DNA from: a virus
IMG/VR virus record: IMGVR_UViG_3300036760_000327
Location: 32,001-96,000 of that record
DNA length: 64,000 nt
Direction: 5' to 3' (one strand)
Every line of letters begins with the position of its first letter. Position 1 is the stretch's first letter. Below, one piece after another: positions 51,620-60,553 of the stretch. The notes under the pieces are model-generated. The model did not search any database and was not told the origin of the DNA. It saw nothing but the letters and a program-made list of their open reading frames with translations. Made by a program: the position numbers and the translations under genes.

Positions 51620-54600
51620 TTAGCCGGTTACCCCGGTCAACAACCCGTGCTTTTCTTCGTTGTGGAATTCAAATCCGACTTCGCAGATGTATTGCAATTT
51701 GTTGCTGTCTTTTCAGACGAGTCAAACATTTCTGTTGACTTCTTAATGTTCCCATTAAGTTCGGACTGTGTCTTCTGATCATTAAGATCTGGGCTATGTA
51801 CAGTCTCTACAGGAATTATAAGATCATAAGTTCTATTAATTTTATCTACTTTTTTGATTAAAGAATTAAACGCTTTTGTATATTCTTTATCATGCACATA
51901 TCCATTGTCTTTAACTAATGTATTTCTATAATTTAAGAAACTACATATCAAATCAGCAATGGATTTTTTTAAGCCCACCATACATTTCCTAGTAATGTTT
52001 AAAATTCTATGAACATCATTAAACTTTGATATTACCAAACGGTAACATTGTCTAGTTCTTAGTCCATTTGGATTGGATACTGAATATATTTTAACTGGAT
52101 GCTCTAGTTCTTTCTCAAAAACTGATTTAGCCCAATTAATAATACCTATATCAGTATTACTAATCTCTATTCCAAGATGCGGCGAACTTAAACAATTCTC
52201 ACCAGTTCGTTTGTATGGTCTGCATACTCTAATTGAACCTTCTGATTCAATCAACATGCTTAATCTGGCGACGTCTTTAAGCTTCATAAAAAGCACCTCC
52301 TTGGCATGTCTTACGATCTGATTATTTCCCTCGGCGTTGTCCATTCTAGGACTTTCACCGATTAAATAGCCTTTTACAAGGACCAATTGTCGATCCTTCA
52401 CGAAATCGTCCCCTGGATGTTGAATATCAGCTTCCATGGTCACGTCTCTATTTTGTAAGAAACGATAGACCATTTCATCTAACTTCAATCCAAAGGCATA
52501 TCCACCATAAAGAGCGGTATTGCTAACAGAACCAGCATTCTCTAACATATAATCCTTAATCAGATTCAAGGTTCCATGAGGAGAAAGGTATTGCGCTATC
52601 GCAATTCCGTACGTTCTATCTTTGGGGTACATTTGAAGTTTTCCTTGTGCCCACTGGCTGATTACTGAAATAATCAGCGGGGATGCAAACAGATAAACTT
52701 CATCTCCACCAAAGCGCGTCACTGTCCTAATGAATGCCTCAAAATCTGCTTCAGTAAGGATTCCACCCACTGCTGTAACGTTAGTGTTGATAAAGAAATC
52801 AGCTCCACCAGATGTCCGTCTAGCATGGGTAATAGTAGAATCTAATCCCGAAGAAGTGTCTTCTAATCTTTCTCCGTACAAAGCCATTCGCTCGATGTCG
52901 CGCATAAGCTCGATGCCTTTAACTTTCCGCTCGTATGCACGGTAATTTCCGCCATCAATTGTGTTATTCTGAATCCTTAAGATTCAACTCTTTGCATCGC
53001 TGCAAAGTTCGGACTGTATCATCATCCATCCCTAATGGAATGGATGCCTTACGTGCGGTCTCTGAGGAAATATATTTAGGTTTGCGCTGTATTTCATACC
53101 GTTCAAACCAACGATTAATTTGTTCTTCAGAAATTGTTTTTCGTAAATTCGTATAGCCTTGTTGTTGCCTCCACTTAATATATTCTAGCAAAAACATAGC
53201 TAAGTATTTCTTATTTCGCAAATAGGGTAAAATAGCATTTAAAAACTTTTTACAGGTATTTAGCCCATTTGATTCGATCTTAAGAGCCATATTCCATTTT
53301 TTATTTCTAAGATTATTCTTTTGCAAACTAAAATGAAAGTTAATGCTTAAAGCATACAAAATATTACTAATTTCCTTAATCATTATTTCATCACAGTTCG
53401 TAACAGAAATACCTGTCGCTATCCATCCATATTTATGACCGGATGATTTATCCATATCTTTCTTTCTGAAAAACATGATGGAACCTTCTCCATCAATAAT
53501 ACCAGCTAACCAAGCTAAATCGGTATCTTTTATAATCATTTTATATCTCCTGCTGATTAACCCCACCTTTCTCTTTTACCAAACAGGTGGAAAGGATACT
53601 GGGTTTTTCCAGCATTTTATAAGGTTTTCATTATATCATTACTGATATACGCTGCATGCCTTATACAGCTCGGAATTTAACATAGTATTAGTCACCTCAA
53701 CGGATTTTCTAATAGTCTGTAAATAGTTATAGACTCTTGCGGCTTTGCGACTCTTTGTATAAAGAGCAGTAGAAGGAGATCCTTCTTCAAAGGCTGCACC
53801 GATGATCACCATCGTTGCTGCATTGGCTGCCGAGGCCGCGGCTGTAGCACCATAAGCTCTAATAGCTGTTACAGCGCACGCTGCTGTAGCTGTTACTAAA
53901 ATAACTTCGCCGGTTGAAGGAATTTTAACCAAGTCATACTTGTTAAAATAATTACCTTCGCCCGAGGCTACAGTTAATCCAGTAGCTGCTGACGTAGCAG
54001 AAGCTGCTAATGAAGACCAACTCGGATTAAGATCCAGATGTGTATTCTAGTCATTACTGACTAGCTCGGACTTTATCATCATCTTGCGATGTTTCACGTA
54101 AAGTCTCTGAGGAACGGAGTTTTGTCAAATCAAGTACGCTATTAGCCAATCGTGGAAGATGTAACATATTATATCTTTCTGCTTTTGCGAGTTTATGTTT
54201 CTCTATTAACTGATTAACATAATCTCGATCAATATAATCTTTATATCTCCCATCAGGTCCGCGGTTTTTTATTAATTGTTCGCGATAATTTGCGTATTCT
54301 AGCATGATATCTACTTCTGCTTGTTTGGTTTTTAAGTAAGGACGTATCATTTCTATTAATTTTCTACAACTCCCCGTACTATTACAAACTATTGTAATAG
54401 CATGATTTTGTTTACCGTGTAAATTATAAGCATTAATAGTATAATGAAATTTTAGTCCTAACTTATGCCACATTTCACTAACAGCTCTAATCATATATGG
54501 ATTAGTATTACAAACCGTAACTATCATAGAGATAAATGTTGCCATATCACTCTTATTTAATTGTTTTCTTGATTGGTAACACAACATTAAACATCCTTCT

Positions 54601-55326
54601 CCTTCTATGATAGCCGCTAGCCATGCTTTATCTTGCTCTGACAACATATAATTTCCTTTCCTGCTGATTGTCCCGCCAAAGGAATTGTCACATAATGTAT
54701 CCTTGACATAGGAGTTTCCAGCATATGGTGAAATTTTATGAGAACAATGTTGTTTATTCTCAGGCCATTCTACTGTAGTGTTGATGGCTACCCTTTTGTT
54801 AAGCTTTGAAACCAAAACGTACAAAGGCATAAATGTTAACTGCAATTTCGTATTACGATTATTTTTGCAGATCAGACTGTCGCATCATCTTTCGATGTCT
54901 CCTCGCTCAGTCGTTCACGGTGCTTTCGCTTCCGCCCTGTTGTCCATCTCTGGATGTCCAAGTCAATCAGAGGAGATTTATAGCGGCCCGCTTTGTCAAG
55001 CCGCCTCTGGCTGTAAAAGATAAATTTTATCCAAATTTGTTAATGATTTCAATAAGTTATGAAATCATGCTTGCTCATTTCTGTCAAGCTCTGCATATTC
55101 ATTTATATGCAGTTCAGACTGTCGCTTCTACTTTCGTAGTCTCTCCACTCAGTCGTTGCAACTGCACGGCTTTCGCCTGCTTGTTGAGGGTTGCCATCTC
55201 AGGTGTTCCCCATTAATCAGGAGAGATTTTATATGACCAAGTAGTTTACCAAGCCATATCCACCACACGTAGATTTGACAATATGTTTTGTGAGCCTGTT
55301 CCGCCCGTTACCATTGTTGCTGCCAT
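51620..55326 (-). CDS. Major capsid protein (SU10 MCP/DUF5309-like), 6 exons, 395 aa after splicing
   Basis: Exons 55326-55252, 55031-54999, 54827-54756, 54034-53665, 52955-52393 and 51694-51620 total 1188 nt and join without stops: MAATMV...VVDMA|DKIYLLQPEAA|PLYVLV...VEWPEN|DLNP...NYLQTIRKSVEVTNT...L Y|GGNYRAYE...ELMRDIERMALYG...DDFVKD|QYICEVGFEFHNEEKHGLLTGVTG*. Follows the scaffold gene; GGAGGTG RBS. Confidence 0.9.
51637..52287 (-). CDS. Intron 5-encoded LAGLIDADG endonuclease
   Basis: AGGAGG RBS, ARLSMLIESEGSI, IEISNTD. The frame runs 58 nt into exon 6. Confidence 0.8.
   Translation of the reverse strand: MKLKDVARLSMLIESEGSIRVCRPYKRTGENCLSSPHLGIEISNTDIGIINWAKSVFEKELEHPVKIYSVSNPNGLRTRQCYRLVISKFNDVHRILNITRKCMVGLKKSIADLICSFLNYRNTLVKDNGYVHDKEYTKAFNSLIKKVDKINRTYDLIIPVETVHSPDLNDQKTQSELNGNIKKSTEMFDSSEKTATNCNTSAKSDLNSTTKKSTGC
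51695..52392 (-). mobile_element. Group I intron 5 of the capsid gene (698 nt)
   Basis: P1 aaggaU/Guccuu; core GUAGAGACUG...ACACAGUCCG; terminal G. Confidence 0.88.
52956..53664 (-). mobile_element. Group I intron 4 of the capsid gene (709 nt, phase 1)
   Basis: P1 gcugU/Gcagc; AAUGCUGGAA...AAUCAGCAGG (P/Q); UCAGAGACCG...AUACAGUCCG (R/S); terminal G. Splicing restores the Tyr codon T|AT. Confidence 0.9.
52964..53539 (-). CDS. Intron 4-encoded LAGLIDADG endonuclease
   Basis: LAWLAGIIDGEGSI; AILPYLRNK. Confidence 0.9.
   Translation of the reverse strand: MIIKDTDLAWLAGIIDGEGSIMFFRKKDMDKSSGHKYGWIATGISVTNCDEIMIKEISNILYALSINFHFSLQKNNLRNKKWNMALKIESNGLNTCKKFLNAILPYLRNKKYLAMFLLEYIKWRQQQGYTNLRKTISEEQINRWFERYEIQRKPKYISSETARKASIPLGMDDDTVRTLQRCKELNLKDSE
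54035..54755 (-). mobile_element. Group I intron 3 of the capsid gene (721 nt)
   Basis: P1 gagaaU/Guucuc; AUGCUGGAAA...AAUCAGCAGG; UCAGAGACUU...AUAAAGUCCG; terminal G. Confidence 0.9.
54054..54647 (-). CDS. Intron 3-encoded LAGLIDADG endonuclease
   Basis: AWLAAIIEGEGCL; IRPYLKTK. In frame with exon 3. Confidence 0.88.
   Translation of the reverse strand: MLSEQDKAWLAAIIEGEGCLMLCYQSRKQLNKSDMATFISMIVTVCNTNPYMIRAVSEMWHKLGLKFHYTINAYNLHGKQNHAITIVCNSTGSCRKLIEMIRPYLKTKQAEVDIMLEYANYREQLIKNRGPDGRYKDYIDRDYVNQLIEKHKLAKAERYNMLHLPRLANSVLDLTKLRSSETLRETSQDDDKVRASQ
54828..54998 (-). ncRNA. Group I intron 2 of the capsid gene (171 nt, ORF-less)
   Basis: P1 gcggcU/Ggccgc; P3 UCUCCUC/GAGGAGA; P7 GACUG/CAGUC; P8 CAUC-GAAA-GAUG; terminal G. 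Confidence 0.85.
55032..55251 (-). ncRNA. Group I intron 1 of the capsid gene (220 nt, ORF-less)
   Basis: P1 auauggcU/Ggucauau; P3 UCUCUCC/GGAGAGA; P7 GACUG/CAGUC; P8 CUAC-GAAA-GUAG; terminal G. Confidence 0.87.
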
Positions 55327-55371: not shown

Positions 55372-56388
55372 CTATTTCTTCGATGCTAAATCAAGTCCAT
55401 GCAAGAAATTAGCCGAGACTGGTCCAGCTTTTAACATGTCATCAAACATCTTTTCTTCCTCTGTCATAGGCACTGTGGCATCACGAGGAGCCATCCTATT
55501 TGTAGGAGTAATAGGCATTGTCTGATTAGATGTTAATGGAACCGAGGCATTCCTTCGTTTACGAATCTGTTCTTTCAATCTTTGTTCAAGTTTTGAAAGA
55601 ATTTCTTCTTCTGATAATCTTGGCGCAGCCTGTACAGTAGGAGGTACAGAAGTTATAGGAATATTTAATTCCCGTTTCATTGCTTCTAAAGCAGCAGTTT
55701 TACGTCTTTTGGCTTCATCATACACACGAGGAAGCGCATTAGGATTATCATTAACTGATGGATTTTCAGCCACAATTTGACGCATAAGAGGTCTTAATTC
55801 ATCAAAATCTGTGTGTTCAGATCTGAATCTATTTACAAAATCTCTTGTGTTTCTAATATTATCGTATTCTGAAAAAGCTGCTGGCAAAGCAGTCTGGAGC
55901 ACCGCACGAACAGTCTTTACGACATTTTCTTTTGGTGACTGAATGATTGCCTGATCATCAATTTCATCCAGAGGATCTGGTTGTGACCTATTTAGCTCTG
56001 TTCCAGTTGCCTGAGATTTCTTTAAAAGTTCCTGAACAATCAGTGATAATTGTGCAATTTGATTGTTGGTTTCTTTTAAAGAATTTTCTAAGTCATTAGA
56101 CTTATCAGAAGTTGGCACTTCTGGCCGTGGGGGCTCAGGCTGGGCTACCACGTGCGTTGGTACAACCACGTCTGCTGTTGGTACCGTTGGTTCGGTAACA
56201 GGAGGCGTTGGCGTCACCGGCTCTACAGTCGGGGTGGCAGTTGCTGGAGTTGGACTTGGGGTTGGTTCTTCAACCTTCTTATCCTCAAAAAGCAATTGCA
56301 AATCTGCATCGGAAATTCCGAAGTTACTTGATAGTGTGTCATCCACAATCTGATCAAGTGTTTTTTTAGGTCTACTTTCTTCTGCCAT
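55372..56388 (-). CDS. Capsid scaffolding protein
   Basis: Acidic, Pro/Thr-rich N-terminus plus helical body, immediately upstream of the capsid gene. Confidence 0.7.
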   Translation of the reverse strand: MAEESRPKKTLDQIVDDTLSSNFGISDADLQLLFEDKKVEEPTPSPTPATATPTVEPVTPTPPVTEPTVPTADVVVPTHVVAQPEPPRPEVPTSDKSNDLENSLKETNNQIAQLSLIVQELLKKSQATGTELNRSQPDPLDEIDDQAIIQSPKENVVKTVRAVLQTALPAAFSEYDNIRNTRDFVNRFRSEHTDFDELRPLMRQIVAENPSVNDNPNALPRVYDEAKRRKTAALEAMKRELNIPITSVPPTVQAAPRLSEEEILSKLEQRLKEQIRKRRNASVPLTSNQTMPITPTNRMAPRDATVPMTEEEKMFDDMLKAGPVSANFLHGLDLASKK

Positions 56389-56732: not shown

Positions 56733-58709
56733 TTAAAATTCCCACTTTCGAGCACCCGTTTTAGGATCATAACTTGTAGGGCTCGGCAATTCTTCTAAAT
56801 ATGGACTTATCTTTCCTGTTTTATTAACAATCAGTCCGCTACCTTTTCGTGAACCACCACTCATCGGAATATATTTTCCGATCTCTTCTTTAATCATATC
56901 TATTATTTCTTTGTTTTTTATAATATCCTTCTGTTCTTTAACTGCTTGCCGTCCGATAGGTTTATTACTAAACGAACCCCGTTCTGATTTCAACAGAGGC
57001 CCTGGTGTGCCTTCTGATTTAGATCCAACTTTTTCAAAAAATGTCTGATAAGCGCCTGGCTTAACTTGATTGGATAAATGGGACTTAATATATTCGGGAT
57101 CCCATCCCTCGGCTTGCGCCCAATCATTCCAATCAAATCCCTTTTCTAGTTTTTTTATCCTGGTTATTCTATACACATCTCCAGATTCATCAAATTTTAC
57201 CACATCCCCAATCTTTCCAAGAGGTTGACTACGAGTAGTTGCGGTTCTAACCCCATCCTTAATCATTTGCAAAGTAGACGTGCCTTCTGGATATAAATTA
57301 TATAAATCTGTACGTACTCCTTCCGCAGGAACCTTATAATACATGGGTTTATATACGGCCATTTCTTTAGAAACAACCCCTGTGATTTTTCCACCAGGAG
57401 GATTTAATATAACATACTTTGTCCCACCACCCGTTGTGCTTTCTCCAGATACACTCCATCCTTTTTCTATCCATTGATTTGCTTTATCTTTAGTTACACG
57501 AATTGGGCCACCCTTAGATTTTAATAAAGGCCCTTCTTCTAATTTACTCCATAATTTATCAATTATCTTATTAGCATCTGTTTCACCAAATTCTGCTTTA
57601 AGAAGATCTTCGTATTTTTTAGCCTGTAATCTTGTATTTAAATGTACATCTTGGGCAATTAATTCTAATTTTAAGGCGGATTTTGGATCTTTAGGATCTG
57701 TAATACTAGTAATATCTTTCATTAATTTATTTTTAAAAGGACTATCATCAAAATTATTTATTTTAGTCTTTAGGTCATTGGTAAATCTAACCCTGGCAAA
57801 TGGATCAGTTTCTATTTTGGACCTAATCGGATTAGATTCAGTGGTAAAAGTCACAACATCATTATATAAATTTAACAACTTATCTGAAGTACTAAGTGGT
57901 TTAGTTTTAGATAAACCTTGTACTGTACTTTTTATACCCGTTTCTGTTCTAGTGCCTGGAGTTTGTAATAATTTCCACATTTCCTCTTTAGCTTCTGGAG
58001 TAAATGGAATTGGTCCAGACGAAAGCGGCAAATCTAATTTCTTGGCCACTTGTTCCGCCAAAGTATCCTCTATAAGTCTGGCCCCGAATTCTTCTCTTAA
58101 TAAATTAGGAGGTACGCCTAATTTAGTTAATGCAGTTTCAGTACCAGTTGGTGATTTCATATATAAATCGTACACTAAATTTTTAATTTCTGGATCCATG
58201 GCCTGTAATCCATGCCCAGCTCCTTCATGCAACAAAGCCGTAGGATCAGGTCTATATATATTTGCAGTACCTAATGGTCGTAATGGAGAAGGTGAAAGAT
58301 ATTCAGCAATTGAACTTGGGCGCCTTTCTAAAGGTTGAAATAAATTTACCGGCATTTCCTTTGTAATAGCTCCAACACGAGGAGCTATTTCTTCAGCCGC
58401 CGCACCAACCCGTTTAATTGTATCCAGTGATTTTAATATCTGGGGTGATGTTAATGGGGATGTTTTATAAATAAAACCAGCGGGACCACCCATCATTCCA
58501 GATGGGTCAGCCAACCCTAAGGCTCGTGCAAGACCATATATAAGTTTAGGCAAATCTGGTCCTATATTTGGTCCTGGTTGTTGTCCCAATAATGATTGAT
58601 ATTTATTGCCTTGTGTAAATGGACCCAGTACTGCATTCTTAATTTGTTCTGCTATTTCCTGTCCACTTTCTGGAGGCGACATTTGAATAGGTGCTAATAA
58701 ATCTGCCAT
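56733..58709 (-). CDS. Multidomain protein with HExxxH metallopeptidase-like motif and ASCH-like domain
   Basis: ALLHEGAGHGLQ...EEFGAR; STLQMIKDGVRTATTRS..GKIGDVVKF...WAQAEGW. Confidence 0.55.
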   Translation of the reverse strand: MADLLAPIQMSPPESGQEIAEQIKNAVLGPFTQGNKYQSLLGQQPGPNIGPDLPKLIYGLARALGLADPSGMMGGPAGFIYKTSPLTSPQILKSLDTIKRVGAAAEEIAPRVGAITKEMPVNLFQPLERRPSSIAEYLSPSPLRPLGTANIYRPDPTALLHEGAGHGLQAMDPEIKNLVYDLYMKSPTGTETALTKLGVPPNLLREEFGARLIEDTLAEQVAKKLDLPLSSGPIPFTPEAKEEMWKLLQTPGTRTETGIKSTVQGLSKTKPLSTSDKLLNLYNDVVTFTTESNPIRSKIETDPFARVRFTNDLKTKINNFDDSPFKNKLMKDITSITDPKDPKSALKLELIAQDVHLNTRLQAKKYEDLLKAEFGETDANKIIDKLWSKLEEGPLLKSKGGPIRVTKDKANQWIEKGWSVSGESTTGGGTKYVILNPPGGKITGVVSKEMAVYKPMYYKVPAEGVRTDLYNLYPEGTSTLQMIKDGVRTATTRSQPLGKIGDVVKFDESGDVYRITRIKKLEKGFDWNDWAQAEGWDPEYIKSHLSNQVKPGAYQTFFEKVGSKSEGTPGPLLKSERGSFSNKPIGRQAVKEQKDIIKNKEIIDMIKEEIGKYIPMSGGSRKGSGLIVNKTGKISPYLEELPSPTSYDPKTGARKWEF

Positions 58710-60553
58710 TATTCACTAACTCCTGGAGCTTGTCCACTAACTGGCTGTGGTGATAATCCAGCTCTATTAAGTAATCCGCCGCCCGCGACACGACTCATTT
58801 CTTGCATTTGTTGTACTGCCGGAACAGGAGGACTTCCTGGAGGAGGTACATTTGGAACATTACCAGGCCCACCTGGTCTTTCTTGTGGCTTACCGCCGCC
58901 CTTTGTTCCCTGGCCTTTAAGCTGGTTTTCCATTTGCATTAACATTAATTTTTGTTGCAATGCTTGCTGTTGTTCTTGCTGTATTTGTTCGGGTGATTTT
59001 AATAATCTATTAATATTTTTTATATCCAACACATCCAAAACCATTTTTCTTAATTCCAATTGGTTAATTGCAGGATCCTGATTAAATAATTTATAAGCTT
59101 GCATTAATTGTTGAATTCGCACTTCTTTTATTGCCGTAGTAGAAGAACCCATTGGCTGAAAATTATATTGCTTAAGAATTTCATTAATATCCTGTTGATA
59201 AAATGATGTTCCATTATATCGTTGAAATTCTTCTATACCCACAATTCTAGCAAACTCCTCAGGGGGTAAAAAATGATAATCTAGCCATATGAACATTTTA
59301 GCCATAGCTCTTAATACAGTAAATTCCAACATCTTAACAACTGTATCAAATCGTATGTTGCTCGCCTGCTGTAATCTAACAATACCTGTAGCTGTTTCTC
59401 TTCTTTCTGGCAGTCCGCCACGAGAGTACAAAGATTCTCCACTAGCATCGTCAATATCTTTTTTAATTATACTTTCTTCTACATAAGCTGATTTAGTAAC
59501 ATCCCGAGTATCCAGTGACTTAATAGCATTAATATCATTAGACAATATAACATTTCCTGGATAAGATACCATATTATCAAAATCAATATCAGCATATTTA
59601 TTAGCAATCCACATACGGTTAATAATTAAATTAACATTATCCATGCGTTGATTTCTAACACTATTCAACTCTTCTTGTAAATTTTCAGAAACTTCAGGAA
59701 TTCCTATCCCATATAATTCATGCGGAACCGGAATATATCTTGCCATAATAAAAGGCAATAAACCCTGAAAAGGATTGTCTTCAATTTTTAATACAAAATT
59801 TCTTGCTCCTACAACAATAATCTTATCCCTATCCCAATATTCTAATATTTCTACAATTTGCCGATTACTATCAAAACCATATTCATCCAATATACCAACA
59901 CTAGATAATCTTTCTTTCTTATAAGAATCTACAGTGGCCATAGATTCTGTATGGTTCAATAATTCTGGAACATTTTCATAAAACCCCTGGTCATATAATC
60001 TTTGTAATTCATCATAATCAACATAAGAAAGATGGATAATGTATTTCATTCGACGGACAGACTTGGCCCTATAATCTGGAAAAACATTAAAAATATCAAG
60101 TGGTTCAATATCTATATAATTAAAACTTACAATTTCATCATCATTAAATTTAGGAATTACTTTAGCAAATGAAGTTCCGTACATTACTGTTTCTTTAAAA
60201 AACTCCATGATTTTATTAAATAATTCTAATTGTTCTTCATCTAATTGATATTCAAGTAATCTTTCTAATAAGACAGACATTCCTTCAGCAGCACCCTTGC
60301 GAGGAATAACCGAAAGAATAGGACGAACATTAAATATCGTGCCCAACATTTTTGGTGTAATACTCTCAACAATTGCAAATATGTAAGGAACAAAAATATT
60401 AGATTTAAAGGGAGTAATGGTCACGTCTCTCCAACTGCGATATAATTTATAAAAACGTTTCCAACGTTCCTCGTAAGGTGCCCGCCACTGCTTAGCAGCT
60501 TCGTAAGTAGTGGTAACAAACAAACTTGGATTCTCATCTCTATTGATCGGCAT
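58709..60553 (-). CDS. Portal protein (SU10/P22-like)
   Basis: KSNIFVP, MYGTS, ILEYW, YGIGIPE, QEELN..RNQRMDN, RETATG. Follows the terminase. Confidence 0.88.
   Translation of the reverse strand: MPINRDENPSLFVTTTYEAAKQWRAPYEERWKRFYKLYRSWRDVTITPFKSNIFVPYIFAIVESITPKMLGTIFNVRPILSVIPRKGAAEGMSVLLERLLEYQLDEEQLELFNKIMEFFKETVMYGTSFAKVIPKFNDDEIVSFNYIDIEPLDIFNVFPDYRAKSVRRMKYIIHLSYVDYDELQRLYDQGFYENVPELLNHTESMATVDSYKKERLSSVGILDEYGFDSNRQIVEILEYWDRDKIIVVGARNFVLKIEDNPFQGLLPFIMARYIPVPHELYGIGIPEVSENLQEELNSVRNQRMDNVNLIINRMWIANKYADIDFDNMVSYPGNVILSNDINAIKSLDTRDVTKSAYVEESIIKKDIDDASGESLYSRGGLPERRETATGIVRLQQASNIRFDTVVKMLEFTVLRAMAKMFIWLDYHFLPPEEFARIVGIEEFQRYNGTSFYQQDINEILKQYNFQPMGSSTTAIKEVRIQQLMQAYKLFNQDPAINQLELRKMVLDVLDIKNINRLLKSPEQIQQEQQQALQQKLMLMQMENQLKGQGTKGGGKPQERPGGPGNVPNVPPPGSPPVPAVQQMQEMSRVAGGGLLNRAGLSPQPVSGQAPGVSE

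What the first reader, a model, noticed from the sequence alone, without database searches (positions are those of the whole stretch)
54828..54998. A 171-nt minimal group I intron
Seen in sequence: intron 2 keeps P1, P3 (UCUCCUC/GAGGAGA), a short P5 (UCCA-GAGA-UGGA), P6 with a GAAA loop, P7 (GACUG/CAGUC), P8 (CAUC-GAAA-GAUG) and P9. It has no apparent P2 or peripheral domains. It shares sequence blocks with the 220-nt intron 1 (GAGAUGG, GCGAAAGC, AACGACUGAG, GCGACAGUCUGA), suggesting a common origin. Established: the ~205-nt Azoarcus intron is the standard example of a very small self-splicing group I intron. Inference: this is either an even smaller natural ribozyme or one that depends on the neighbouring intron or a LAGLIDADG maturase.
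Basis: partly seen in the sequence, partly recalled or inferred. Interest (0 to 1): 0.7.

Follow-up and report, generated by a model that had tools for sequence, protein, structure and literature searches.

The report
Very small phage group I intron
A 171-base self-splicing-type (group I) intron really does interrupt this phage's capsid gene; it keeps the whole catalytic core, but it is a trimmed member of a very common phage intron family and not a size record.

Summary
On the minus strand, 54998-54828 is an intervening sequence of exactly 171 nt. Removing it joins two capsid exons into a sequence colinear with uninterrupted homologues. A related metagenomic phage has the same 23 nt around the junction with nothing inserted.

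There is no P2 and nothing after P9.

It belongs to a large family of compact phage introns, found in at least 120 IMG/VR stretches. Rfam does not detect this family. In 85 members, 29 of 37 core pairs covary. A covariance model built only from other contigs scores intron 2 at 137 bits (E 6e-32).

Its core has the family's usual size. It is short only because the P9.1/P9.2 hairpins are missing. It is the shortest of my sample; the next are about 178-194 nt.

It is not a record. I checked Staphylococcus phage MarsHill and found a 158-nt intron of the same build, whose removal restores the RNA polymerase ADFDGD motif. Earlier notes of this scan reported similar miniature phage introns on other DNA.

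Intron 1 is a distant family member (59% core identity), not a local duplicate. Self-splicing is untested.

The parts
54828..54998 (-). Intron 2, 171 nt, the whole intervening sequence
   Evidence: Exon joining matches uninterrupted homologues. Empty-site allele in L225. Covariance model hit E 6e-32.
54999..55031 (-). Capsid exon 2 (33 nt, DKIYLLQPEAA). Its last 6 nt, GCGGCU (55004-54999), are the 5' strand of P1.
   Evidence: Translation and comparison with P0006, P0009 and others. Pairing read from the sequence.
54983..54988 (-). Internal guide sequence GGCCGC, the 3' strand of P1. G at 54988 pairs with the splice-site U at 54999.
   Evidence: Sequence.
54991..54996 (-). P10 guide ACAAAG in the P1 loop. 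It pairs with exon 3 bases 54826-54821 (CUUUGU).
   Evidence: Sequence. 6 Watson-Crick pairs.
54970..54976 (-). P3 5' strand, UCUCCUC
   Evidence: Pairs with 54904-54898. 6 of 7 pairs covary in the family.
54898..54904 (-). P3 3' strand, GAGGAGA
54936..54962 (-). P4 (CUUG 54962-54959 with CAGG 54939-54936) enclosing P5 (UCCA-GAGA-UGGA, 54954-54943), with A-rich J4/5 and J5/4
   Evidence: Covariation in 3 of 4 P4 pairs and 4 of 4 P5 pairs.
54917..54935 (-). P6/P6a with a GAAA tetraloop
   Evidence: All 6 pairs covary, 100% of cells paired.
54908..54913 (-). P7 5' strand, CGACUG, in the invariant block AACGACUGAG (likely guanosine-binding helix)
   Evidence: Pairs with 54879-54873. The last pair is A-U in 71 members and G-C in 14, never broken.
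54873..54885 (-). J8/7 (AUGCGA, 54885-54880) and P7 3' strand CAGUC-U-G (54879-54873)
   Evidence: Invariant in 85 members.
54886..54897 (-). P8, CAUC-GAAA-GAUG
   Evidence: 4 of 4 pairs covary.
54840..54870 (-). P9, CUGCAA...UUGCAG, with a 19-nt loop
   Evidence: 5 of 6 pairs covary.
54828..54839 (-). 3' tail UUAACAUUUAUG ending in the terminal G (54828). It matches the family's 3'-end motif UAACA-N(2-6)-G.
   Evidence: Family tails. The same motif ends window intron 1, the L122 intron and the MarsHill intron.
54756..54827 (-). Capsid exon 3 (72 nt, PLYVLVSKLNKRVAINTTVEWPEN)
55032..55251 (-). Intron 1 (220 nt). Same family but a different sub-lineage; it keeps the P9.1 and P9.2 hairpins.
   Evidence: 104 bits.

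Best explanation
54998-54828 (minus strand) is a genuine, structurally complete group I intron of 171 nt in the major capsid gene of a complete 106.5-kb phage genome.

It should be removed from the capsid pre-mRNA by the standard group I route. The internal guide GGCCGC pairs with the end of exon 2 (P1, U.G at the cleavage site). An external guanosine bound in P7 attacks after U54999. The P1-loop segment ACAAAG then holds the start of exon 3 (P10). The terminal G54828 takes the guanosine site, and the exons are ligated.

The intron is a member of a very large family of compact, P2-less phage introns of the IA type, and its core is of normal size for that family. It is short only because the hairpins that usually follow P9 (P9.1/P9.2) are absent, so P9 runs straight into the family's 3'-end motif.

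It has no endonuclease gene. It probably spreads, if at all, by co-conversion with the endonuclease-bearing introns next to it.

Shown: the boundaries, the helices and family membership. Inferred: the chemistry. I lean (about 55%) to the RNA being catalytically self-sufficient.
For: Boundaries. Exons 1-3 join to MAATMVTGGTGSQNILSNLRVVDMA|DKIYLLQPEAA|PLYVLVSKLNKRVAINTTVEWPEN, colinear with uninterrupted 390-397-aa SU10-type capsid proteins. Intron-less alleles have the same junction codons. One metagenomic relative (L225) carries the identical 23-nt junction uninterrupted.

Structure. RNAalifold on 85 family members predicts P3, P4, P5, P6, P8 and P9, with compensatory changes in 28 of 31 pairs. 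With P7 added as a pseudoknot, 98.1% of cells pair, against 76% in shuffles and about 40% when the partners are slid. 29 of 37 pairs covary. The variable P7 pair is A-U 71 times and G-C 14 times, and never broken.

Membership. A model built from 58 members of other contigs gives intron 2 the top score, 136.8 bits, E 6e-32, over its full length. Intron 2 has the modal core spacings of the family.

Function. The gene is the capsid gene of a complete genome with terminal repeats, and its exons are 90-100% conserved, so the intron must come out.

Core-only introns elsewhere. A 158-nt relative restores the ADFDGD motif of the RNA polymerase of cultured phage MarsHill.
Against: No splicing data exist for this intron or any family member I could find.

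Rfam's group I model does not recognise it, even at E <= 10 on 501 nt.

It lacks both P2 and P9.1/P9.2, and at least one of these is present in nearly every other family member sampled. The naked RNA may therefore fold poorly.

The single-sequence minimum-energy fold is only modestly better than shuffles (z = -1.87).

The genome is a metagenomic assembly, so the phage's viability is assumed.
Confidence: 0.85

Rival explanations
1. It is a group I intron that cannot fold or splice alone. It needs a helper: a LAGLIDADG protein from the neighbouring introns acting as a maturase, a host or phage RNA chaperone, or stabilisation by the adjacent intron 1.
For: It lacks every peripheral element. Most relatives keep P9.1/P9.2, and those without them keep an extra 5' hairpin. 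Three intronic and two free-standing LAGLIDADG ORFs lie within 4 kb. Intron 1 sits only 33 nt upstream.
Against: No maturase-type feature was tested or seen. The same core-only architecture occurs in MarsHill polymerase genes, where a 158-nt intron has no such neighbour in the stretches I read. L149 looks like a second core-only member in another phage. The core itself is fully canonical, with three GNRA-type loops.
Confidence: 0.3
2. The true intron is longer, or its splice sites lie elsewhere. For example, the hairpin next to P3 could be P2, with the real 5' splice site further upstream, as in the tape-measure-gene introns.
For: In the related tape-measure-gene introns, the hairpin next to P3 turned out not to be P1. 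Their 5' splice site lies 26 nt upstream.
Against: Here the 5' strand of that hairpin encodes conserved residues (QPEAA) present in all homologues. The empty-site allele L225 is contiguous exactly at GCGGCT|CCTTTG. Any frame-preserving shift keeps the length at 171 nt.
Confidence: 0.02
3. It is a decaying, inactive intron remnant in a defective or mis-assembled genome, so the capsid gene is dead.
For: The source is a metagenome-assembled genome. The gene carries an unusual load of five introns. The peripheral hairpins have been lost.
Against: All invariant family positions are intact, and its model score is the highest in the window. P1 and P10 fit the flanking exons perfectly. The exons carry no stops or frameshifts and are near-identical to those of relatives. 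The genome is complete with terminal repeats.
Confidence: 0.05

Closest known systems
Phage group I introns of the IA type (T4 td, Staphylococcus phage Twort orf142 and K-like phages)
   Same: The J8/7-P7'-P9 segment gives blastn matches to introns of Twort/K-like Staphylococcus phages, one of them annotated Intron_gpI. From my own knowledge, the AACGACU...AUAGUCUG P7 blocks and a 3' end of the form ...AACAnnAUG resemble T4 td. Both sit in phage protein-coding genes, often several per gene.
   Different: It has no P2 and no P7.1/P7.2 between P3' and P8, so it does not meet the IA2 definition. At 171 nt it is far smaller than those introns, which from my own knowledge are about 250 nt or more. 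Rfam's RF00028 does not detect it.
[quoted passage not shown]
   Same: Both are compact, ORF-less bacterial-type group I introns with short helices capped by GNRA loops. Azoarcus is the usual benchmark for small size ('compact 205 nt intron', PMC13168695).
   Different: Azoarcus has P2 and sits in a tRNA anticodon loop. It belongs to a different subgroup with different core sequences, and it is proven to self-splice. Intron 2 is 34 nt shorter, sits in an mRNA and is untested.
Miniature introns of Staphylococcus jumbo phage MarsHill (MW248466). The introns were noted, without sizes, by Korn et al., bioRxiv 10.1101/2020.12.14.422802.
   Same: The architecture is the same: P1 directly before P3, AACGACUAA...GAUAUAGUCUGA for P7, a single P9, and a 3' end AUAACAUAAAUG. 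The example at 112884-113041 is 158 nt, and its removal restores GADFDG|DMISIRSLW. The family model R1 detects these introns weakly (31-15 bits).
   Different: They are AT-rich (about 25% GC) and very divergent in sequence. They lie in polymerase and terminase-region genes of a cultured Staphylococcus phage, and they are even shorter.
'Degenerate' small group I introns of fungal nuclear SSU rDNA (56-81 nt, PMC3160393)
   Same: They are discussed as unusually small group I introns.
   Different: Those lack most of the catalytic core. Intron 2 keeps all of P3-P9.

Membership tests
Group I intron | P1 helix between the 5' exon end and an internal guide sequence, with a U.G wobble at the cleavage site | tested here: met
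   GCGGCU (exon) pairs with GGCCGC (intron positions 11-16), and U54999 pairs with G54988. The register is fixed by protein homology and the empty-site allele.
Group I intron | Intron ends in G (omega-G), and the 3' exon is aligned by P10 | tested here: met
   G54828 is the last base. Intron ACAAAG forms 6 bp with exon 3 CUUUGU.
Group I intron | Conserved core fold: P3-P8 and P4-P6 domains, with P7 forming a pseudoknot with P3 | tested here: met
   Covariation in 85 relatives: 98.1% of cells paired, 29 of 37 pairs with compensatory changes, P7 pair A-U/G-C never broken.
Group I intron | Match to the curated covariance model (Rfam RF00028 Intron_gpI) | tested here: not met
   No hit at the gathering score or at E <= 10, for the window or for 16 family loci. 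I read this as low sensitivity of the model for this phage family, not as evidence against the fold.
Group I intron | Guanosine-dependent self-splicing | not testable with these tools
   Needs an in vitro splicing assay or RNA data.
Subgroup IA2 (T4 td / Twort type) | Extra helices P7.1/P7.2 between P3' and P8, and a P2 | tested here: not met
   P3' (54904-54898) abuts P8 (54897-54886) directly. J1/3 (UAUAAA) joins P1 to P3 with no P2.
Compact phage intron family defined here (CUGAUUGACUUGGA ... AACGACURAG ... GCGAYAGUCUGA ... UAACA-N-G) | All invariant blocks, the family spacing, and a significant score against a model built without the query | tested here: met
   All 32 invariant columns are, by definition, shared by intron 2, which is a row of that alignment. 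Modal spacings of 55 and 44 nt. 136.8 bits, E 6e-32.
Compact phage intron family defined here | P9.1/P9.2 hairpins between P9 and the 3'-end motif (present in most members) | tested here: not met
   Only 12 nt follow P9. This loss is what makes the intron 171 nt.

The most novel reading that the evidence does not exclude
Intron 2 is a fully autonomous ribozyme: a 171-nt RNA with only P1 and P3-P9 that self-splices without protein. It would then be smaller than any group I intron shown by experiment to self-splice that I know of. It would also come with a deep natural alignment (hundreds of covarying relatives) to guide structural and engineering work, for example on compact circular-RNA scaffolds.
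Probability: 0.5. Interest if true: 0.55.

Novelty: new member of a known kind. Interest (0 to 1): 0.35.

Why it matters
It shows that phage group I introns can be stripped to the bare P1 and P3-P9 core, at 171 nt here and 158 nt in phage MarsHill, while still sitting in essential genes. This is well below the 205-nt Azoarcus benchmark. It also shows that a very abundant family of such introns is invisible to the standard Rfam model, so phage capsid, tape-measure and other genes get annotated as fragments.

For this particular intron the value is modest. It is a clean, well-bounded candidate for testing how small a natural self-splicing group I ribozyme can be, backed by a large covarying alignment. 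It is not a new kind of element and not the smallest example.

Tried and rejected
- Rfam at the gathering score and at E <= 10 gave no group I hit for the window or for 16 family loci.
- tblastn of exon 4 against cultured phages gave nothing.
I used the search for related loci and a metagenome pattern scan instead.
- My automatic 5'/3' splice-site and ORF-continuity script was unreliable. It shifted intron 2's own 5' site by 1 nt and mis-placed the tape-measure introns, so the family lengths it gave are estimates only.
- I first took the tape-measure-gene introns (L007, L063, L085, L090, L101) for 176-181-nt equals of intron 2. An uninterrupted homologue (Javan278...MLDNLKLGYGGT...) showed that their 5' splice site is 26 nt further upstream, which makes them about 202 nt with an extra hairpin.
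- Literature searches for 'smallest/minimal/small group I intron' returned almost nothing usable beyond the fungal 56-81-nt degenerate introns and the Azoarcus length.
- The group I intron database paper gives no minimum length in its text.
- A Pfam DNA_pol_A search of MarsHill found nothing. A self-blastn found the intron family instead.
- The idea that intron 2 is a local duplicate of intron 1 was rejected on identity ranks.

Full report
**Setting**

The window is bases 32001-96000 of a complete 106,486-bp virus record with direct terminal repeats. The head module lies on the minus strand. It comprises a portal gene (58709-60553), a scaffold-like ORF (55372-56388) and then a capsid gene that starts at ATG 55326 but has no long ORF. 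Exon-sized pieces hit Pfam SU10_MCP. The finding concerns the second intervening sequence of that gene.

**Boundaries**

The three N-terminal pieces are 55326-55252, 55031-54999 and 54827-54756. They translate to MAATMVTGGTGSQNILSNLRVVDMA, DKIYLLQPEAA and PLYVLVSKLNKRVAINTTVEWPEN.

- Joined, they are colinear and nearly identical with the N-termini of many uninterrupted 390-397-aa homologues. For example, P0009 reads MAATMVTGATGSQNILSNLRVVDMADKIYLLQPEAAPLYVLVSRLNKR....
- Intron-less alleles in IMG/VR contigs read ...GCGGCT|CCTTTA... at the same place.
- A scan of metagenome contigs for the predicted spliced junction CCAGAGGCGGCT|CCTTTGTACGT found one contig, L225. It is a related capsid gene in which these 23 nt are contiguous.

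The insertion is therefore exactly the 171 nt 54998-54828. Only the register with U at the exon end and G at the intron end obeys the group I rules, and any other frame-preserving register has the same length.

**Anatomy (numbering from intron position 1 = 54998)**

- P1: exon GCGGCU with intron 11-16 GGCCGC, U.G at the splice site.
- P10: intron 3-8 ACAAAG with exon 3 bases 2-7 CUUUGU, 6 bp.
- J1/3: UAUAAA. There is no P2.
- P3: 23-29 UCUCCUC with 95-101 GAGGAGA.
- J3/4: UGAUUGA.
- P4: 37-40 CUUG with 60-63 CAGG.
- P5: UCCA-GAGA-UGGA.
- P6/P6a: 64-82, with a GAAA loop.
- P7: 86-91 CGACUG with 120-126 CAGUC(U)G.
- P8: CAUC-GAAA-GAUG, directly after P3', so there is no P7.1/7.2.
- J8/7: AUGCGA.
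- P9: 129-159.
- 3' tail: a 12-nt tail UUAACAUUUAUG ending in the terminal G.

**A large family**

The block AACGACTRAG-N15-40-GCGAYAGTCTGA occurs twice in the window, in introns 1 and 2, against 0 expected. It occurs nowhere else in the genome.

An alignment of 85 distinct members (A1) shows invariant blocks: CUGAUUGACUUGGA, ACArGG, GUGAACGACUrAG and GCGAyAGUCUGA.

- RNAalifold recovers P3, P4, P5, P6, P8 and P9, with compensatory changes in 28 of 31 pairs.
- With P7 added as a pseudoknot, 98.1% of cells pair. The figures are 76.1% in shuffles and about 40% with slid partners.
- 29 of 37 pairs show double changes.
- The one variable P7 pair is A-U in 71 members and G-C in 14, and is never broken. 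The search pattern would have allowed the non-pairing combinations.

A covariance model built from 58 members of other contigs (A2/R1) places intron 2 first among 341 kb searched, at 136.8 bits, E 6e-32, full length. Intron 1 is second at 104 bits. Rfam does not detect any of these.

**Why it is short**

The core of intron 2 has the family's modal spacings: 55 nt from J3/4 to the P7 block, and 44 nt between the two P7 blocks. The core is not reduced.

Nearly all members end with the motif UAACA-N(2-6)-G, most often AGUAACAGAAUG. Between P9 and this motif they carry one to three hairpins: P9.1 with a CCGAAGAGG or GCAGAAAUG loop, P9.2, and sometimes a third. Intron 1 has P9.1 and P9.2. In intron 2, P9 runs directly into UUAACAUUUAUG.

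A second scan for this short 3' architecture found 65 distinct sequences. Almost all are one intron in phage tape-measure genes. An uninterrupted homologue, Streptococcus phage Javan278, reads ...QNYTMLDNLKLGYGGT.... This places their 5' splice site 26 nt upstream of the hairpin that abuts P3. They therefore have a P2-like hairpin and are about 202 nt long.

L165 is about 183 nt. L149 (about 178 nt, exon frames unverified) seems to share intron 2's bare architecture. My rough estimates put most members at 200-250 nt and the shortest others at about 189-194 nt. Intron 2 is thus the shortest in my sample, but it sits at the end of a continuum.

**Not a record**

Earlier notes of this scan claimed 140-185-nt group I introns in Staphylococcus jumbo phages. 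I tested this on phage MarsHill (MW248466). Its describers noted intron-split genes but gave no sizes.

A self-blastn shows a dispersed repeat of about 125 nt in at least 9 copies. The copy at 112884-113041 is a 158-nt intervening sequence. Its removal restores ...GADFDG|DMISIRSLW..., the catalytic ADFDGD motif of the RNA polymerase beta' subunit. That this motif is universal is from my own knowledge.

The 158-nt intron has these features:
- P1 is ACGGU/GCCGU.
- There is no P2.
- P7 is formed by AACGACUAA ... GAUAUAGUCUGA.
- There is one P9.
- The 3' end is AUAACAUAAAUG.

Model R1 detects the MarsHill copies weakly (31-15 bits). So full-core phage group I introns shorter than 171 nt already sit in a public genome. 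The fungal 56-81-nt 'degenerate' introns (PMC3160393) are a different matter, because they lack the core.

**Relation to intron 1 and to neighbours**

The two window introns are only 59% identical over the core. Intron 1 ranks 79th of 84 among intron 2's relatives, whose nearest are 79-81% identical and lie in other contigs. Intron 1 belongs to the sub-lineage with UGAUUAAUGGGG...CCCUCA.

The two introns are therefore separate arrivals from one family, not a local duplication.

- The close relative L122 (capsid 93% identical) lacks introns 1 and 3. At exactly intron 2's site it carries a different, roughly 745-nt LAGLIDADG-bearing intron.
- L225 has an empty site 2 and an ORF-bearing version of intron 1.
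- The N-terminal 60 codons of this capsid family are an insertion hot spot.

**Mechanism and open points**

The sequence supports ordinary group I splicing, as set out in the best explanation. The intron interrupts the capsid gene of a complete genome, and its exons are intact, so it must be removed in vivo.

Whether the bare RNA suffices is unknown. It lacks both P2 and P9.1/P9.2, at least one of which nearly all relatives keep. That argues for lower stability. Against that stand the canonical core, its three GNRA-type loops and the existence of the still smaller MarsHill introns. I put autonomy at about 55% and helper dependence at about 30%.

**Verdict**

This is a new, well-bounded, very small member of a known kind. 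Similar miniature phage introns have been noted before in this scan on other DNA.

Noticed in passing
L122:3762-4508 (IMGVR_UViG_3300031949_000008): A close relative (capsid 93% identical) has a different, roughly 745-nt LAGLIDADG-encoding group I intron at exactly intron 2's insertion site (GCCGCT|CCTTTG). It lacks introns 1 and 3. Two intron lineages use the same site.
   Followed up: partly
L225 (Ga0335081_10300073), whole 2129 nt: This related capsid gene has empty sites for introns 2, 3 and 4. At site 1 it has an ORF-bearing (LAGLIDADG) intron whose last 94 nt are 90% identical to window intron 1. Window intron 1 therefore looks like an endonuclease-less version of it.
   Followed up: partly
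L007, L063, L085, L090, L101 and about 50 further loci (L143-L211): One intron of this family is very widespread in phage tape-measure genes. It always splits the conserved ...MLDNL|KLGYGGT... motif. It starts UAACACAAUGGGGG and ends UAACAC..AUG, so a near-repeat sits at both ends.
   Followed up: partly
L214:8285-8782 (MarsHill 58285-58782): Three tandem mini-introns lie within about 500 nt, separated by tiny exons. The first seems to end right after P7 (...GATATAGTCTAAAATAG), with no P9, which would make it only about 125 nt. Exon junctions were not verified.
   Followed up: no
window 54054-54845 (-): The LAGLIDADG ORF of intron 3 is in frame with exon 3 and reads through the intron's P7-P9 core, ending 13-15 nt before the next exon. 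Model R1 weakly matches this 3' core (54023-54108, E 0.04).
   Followed up: no
whole family (A1), 3' ends: A conserved UAACA-N(2-6)-G motif ends nearly every member. It also ends the L122 intron and the MarsHill introns. Its structural role (P9.0, or docking) is unexplained.
   Followed up: no
window 56008-56093 (+): A long AT-rich hairpin inside the scaffold-like ORF gives weak Rfam hits to plant miRNA precursor models (E 0.006). This is almost certainly a chance match to a hairpin, but the hairpin itself is real.
   Followed up: no
L001:2945-3205 (MW202674.1, Podoviridae sp. ctn9Y15): A P22-type coat gene annotated as two CDSs plus a 'hypothetical protein' is in fact split by a family member of about 230-260 nt (estimated). 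This is an example of the mis-annotation caused by Rfam missing the family.
   Followed up: partly
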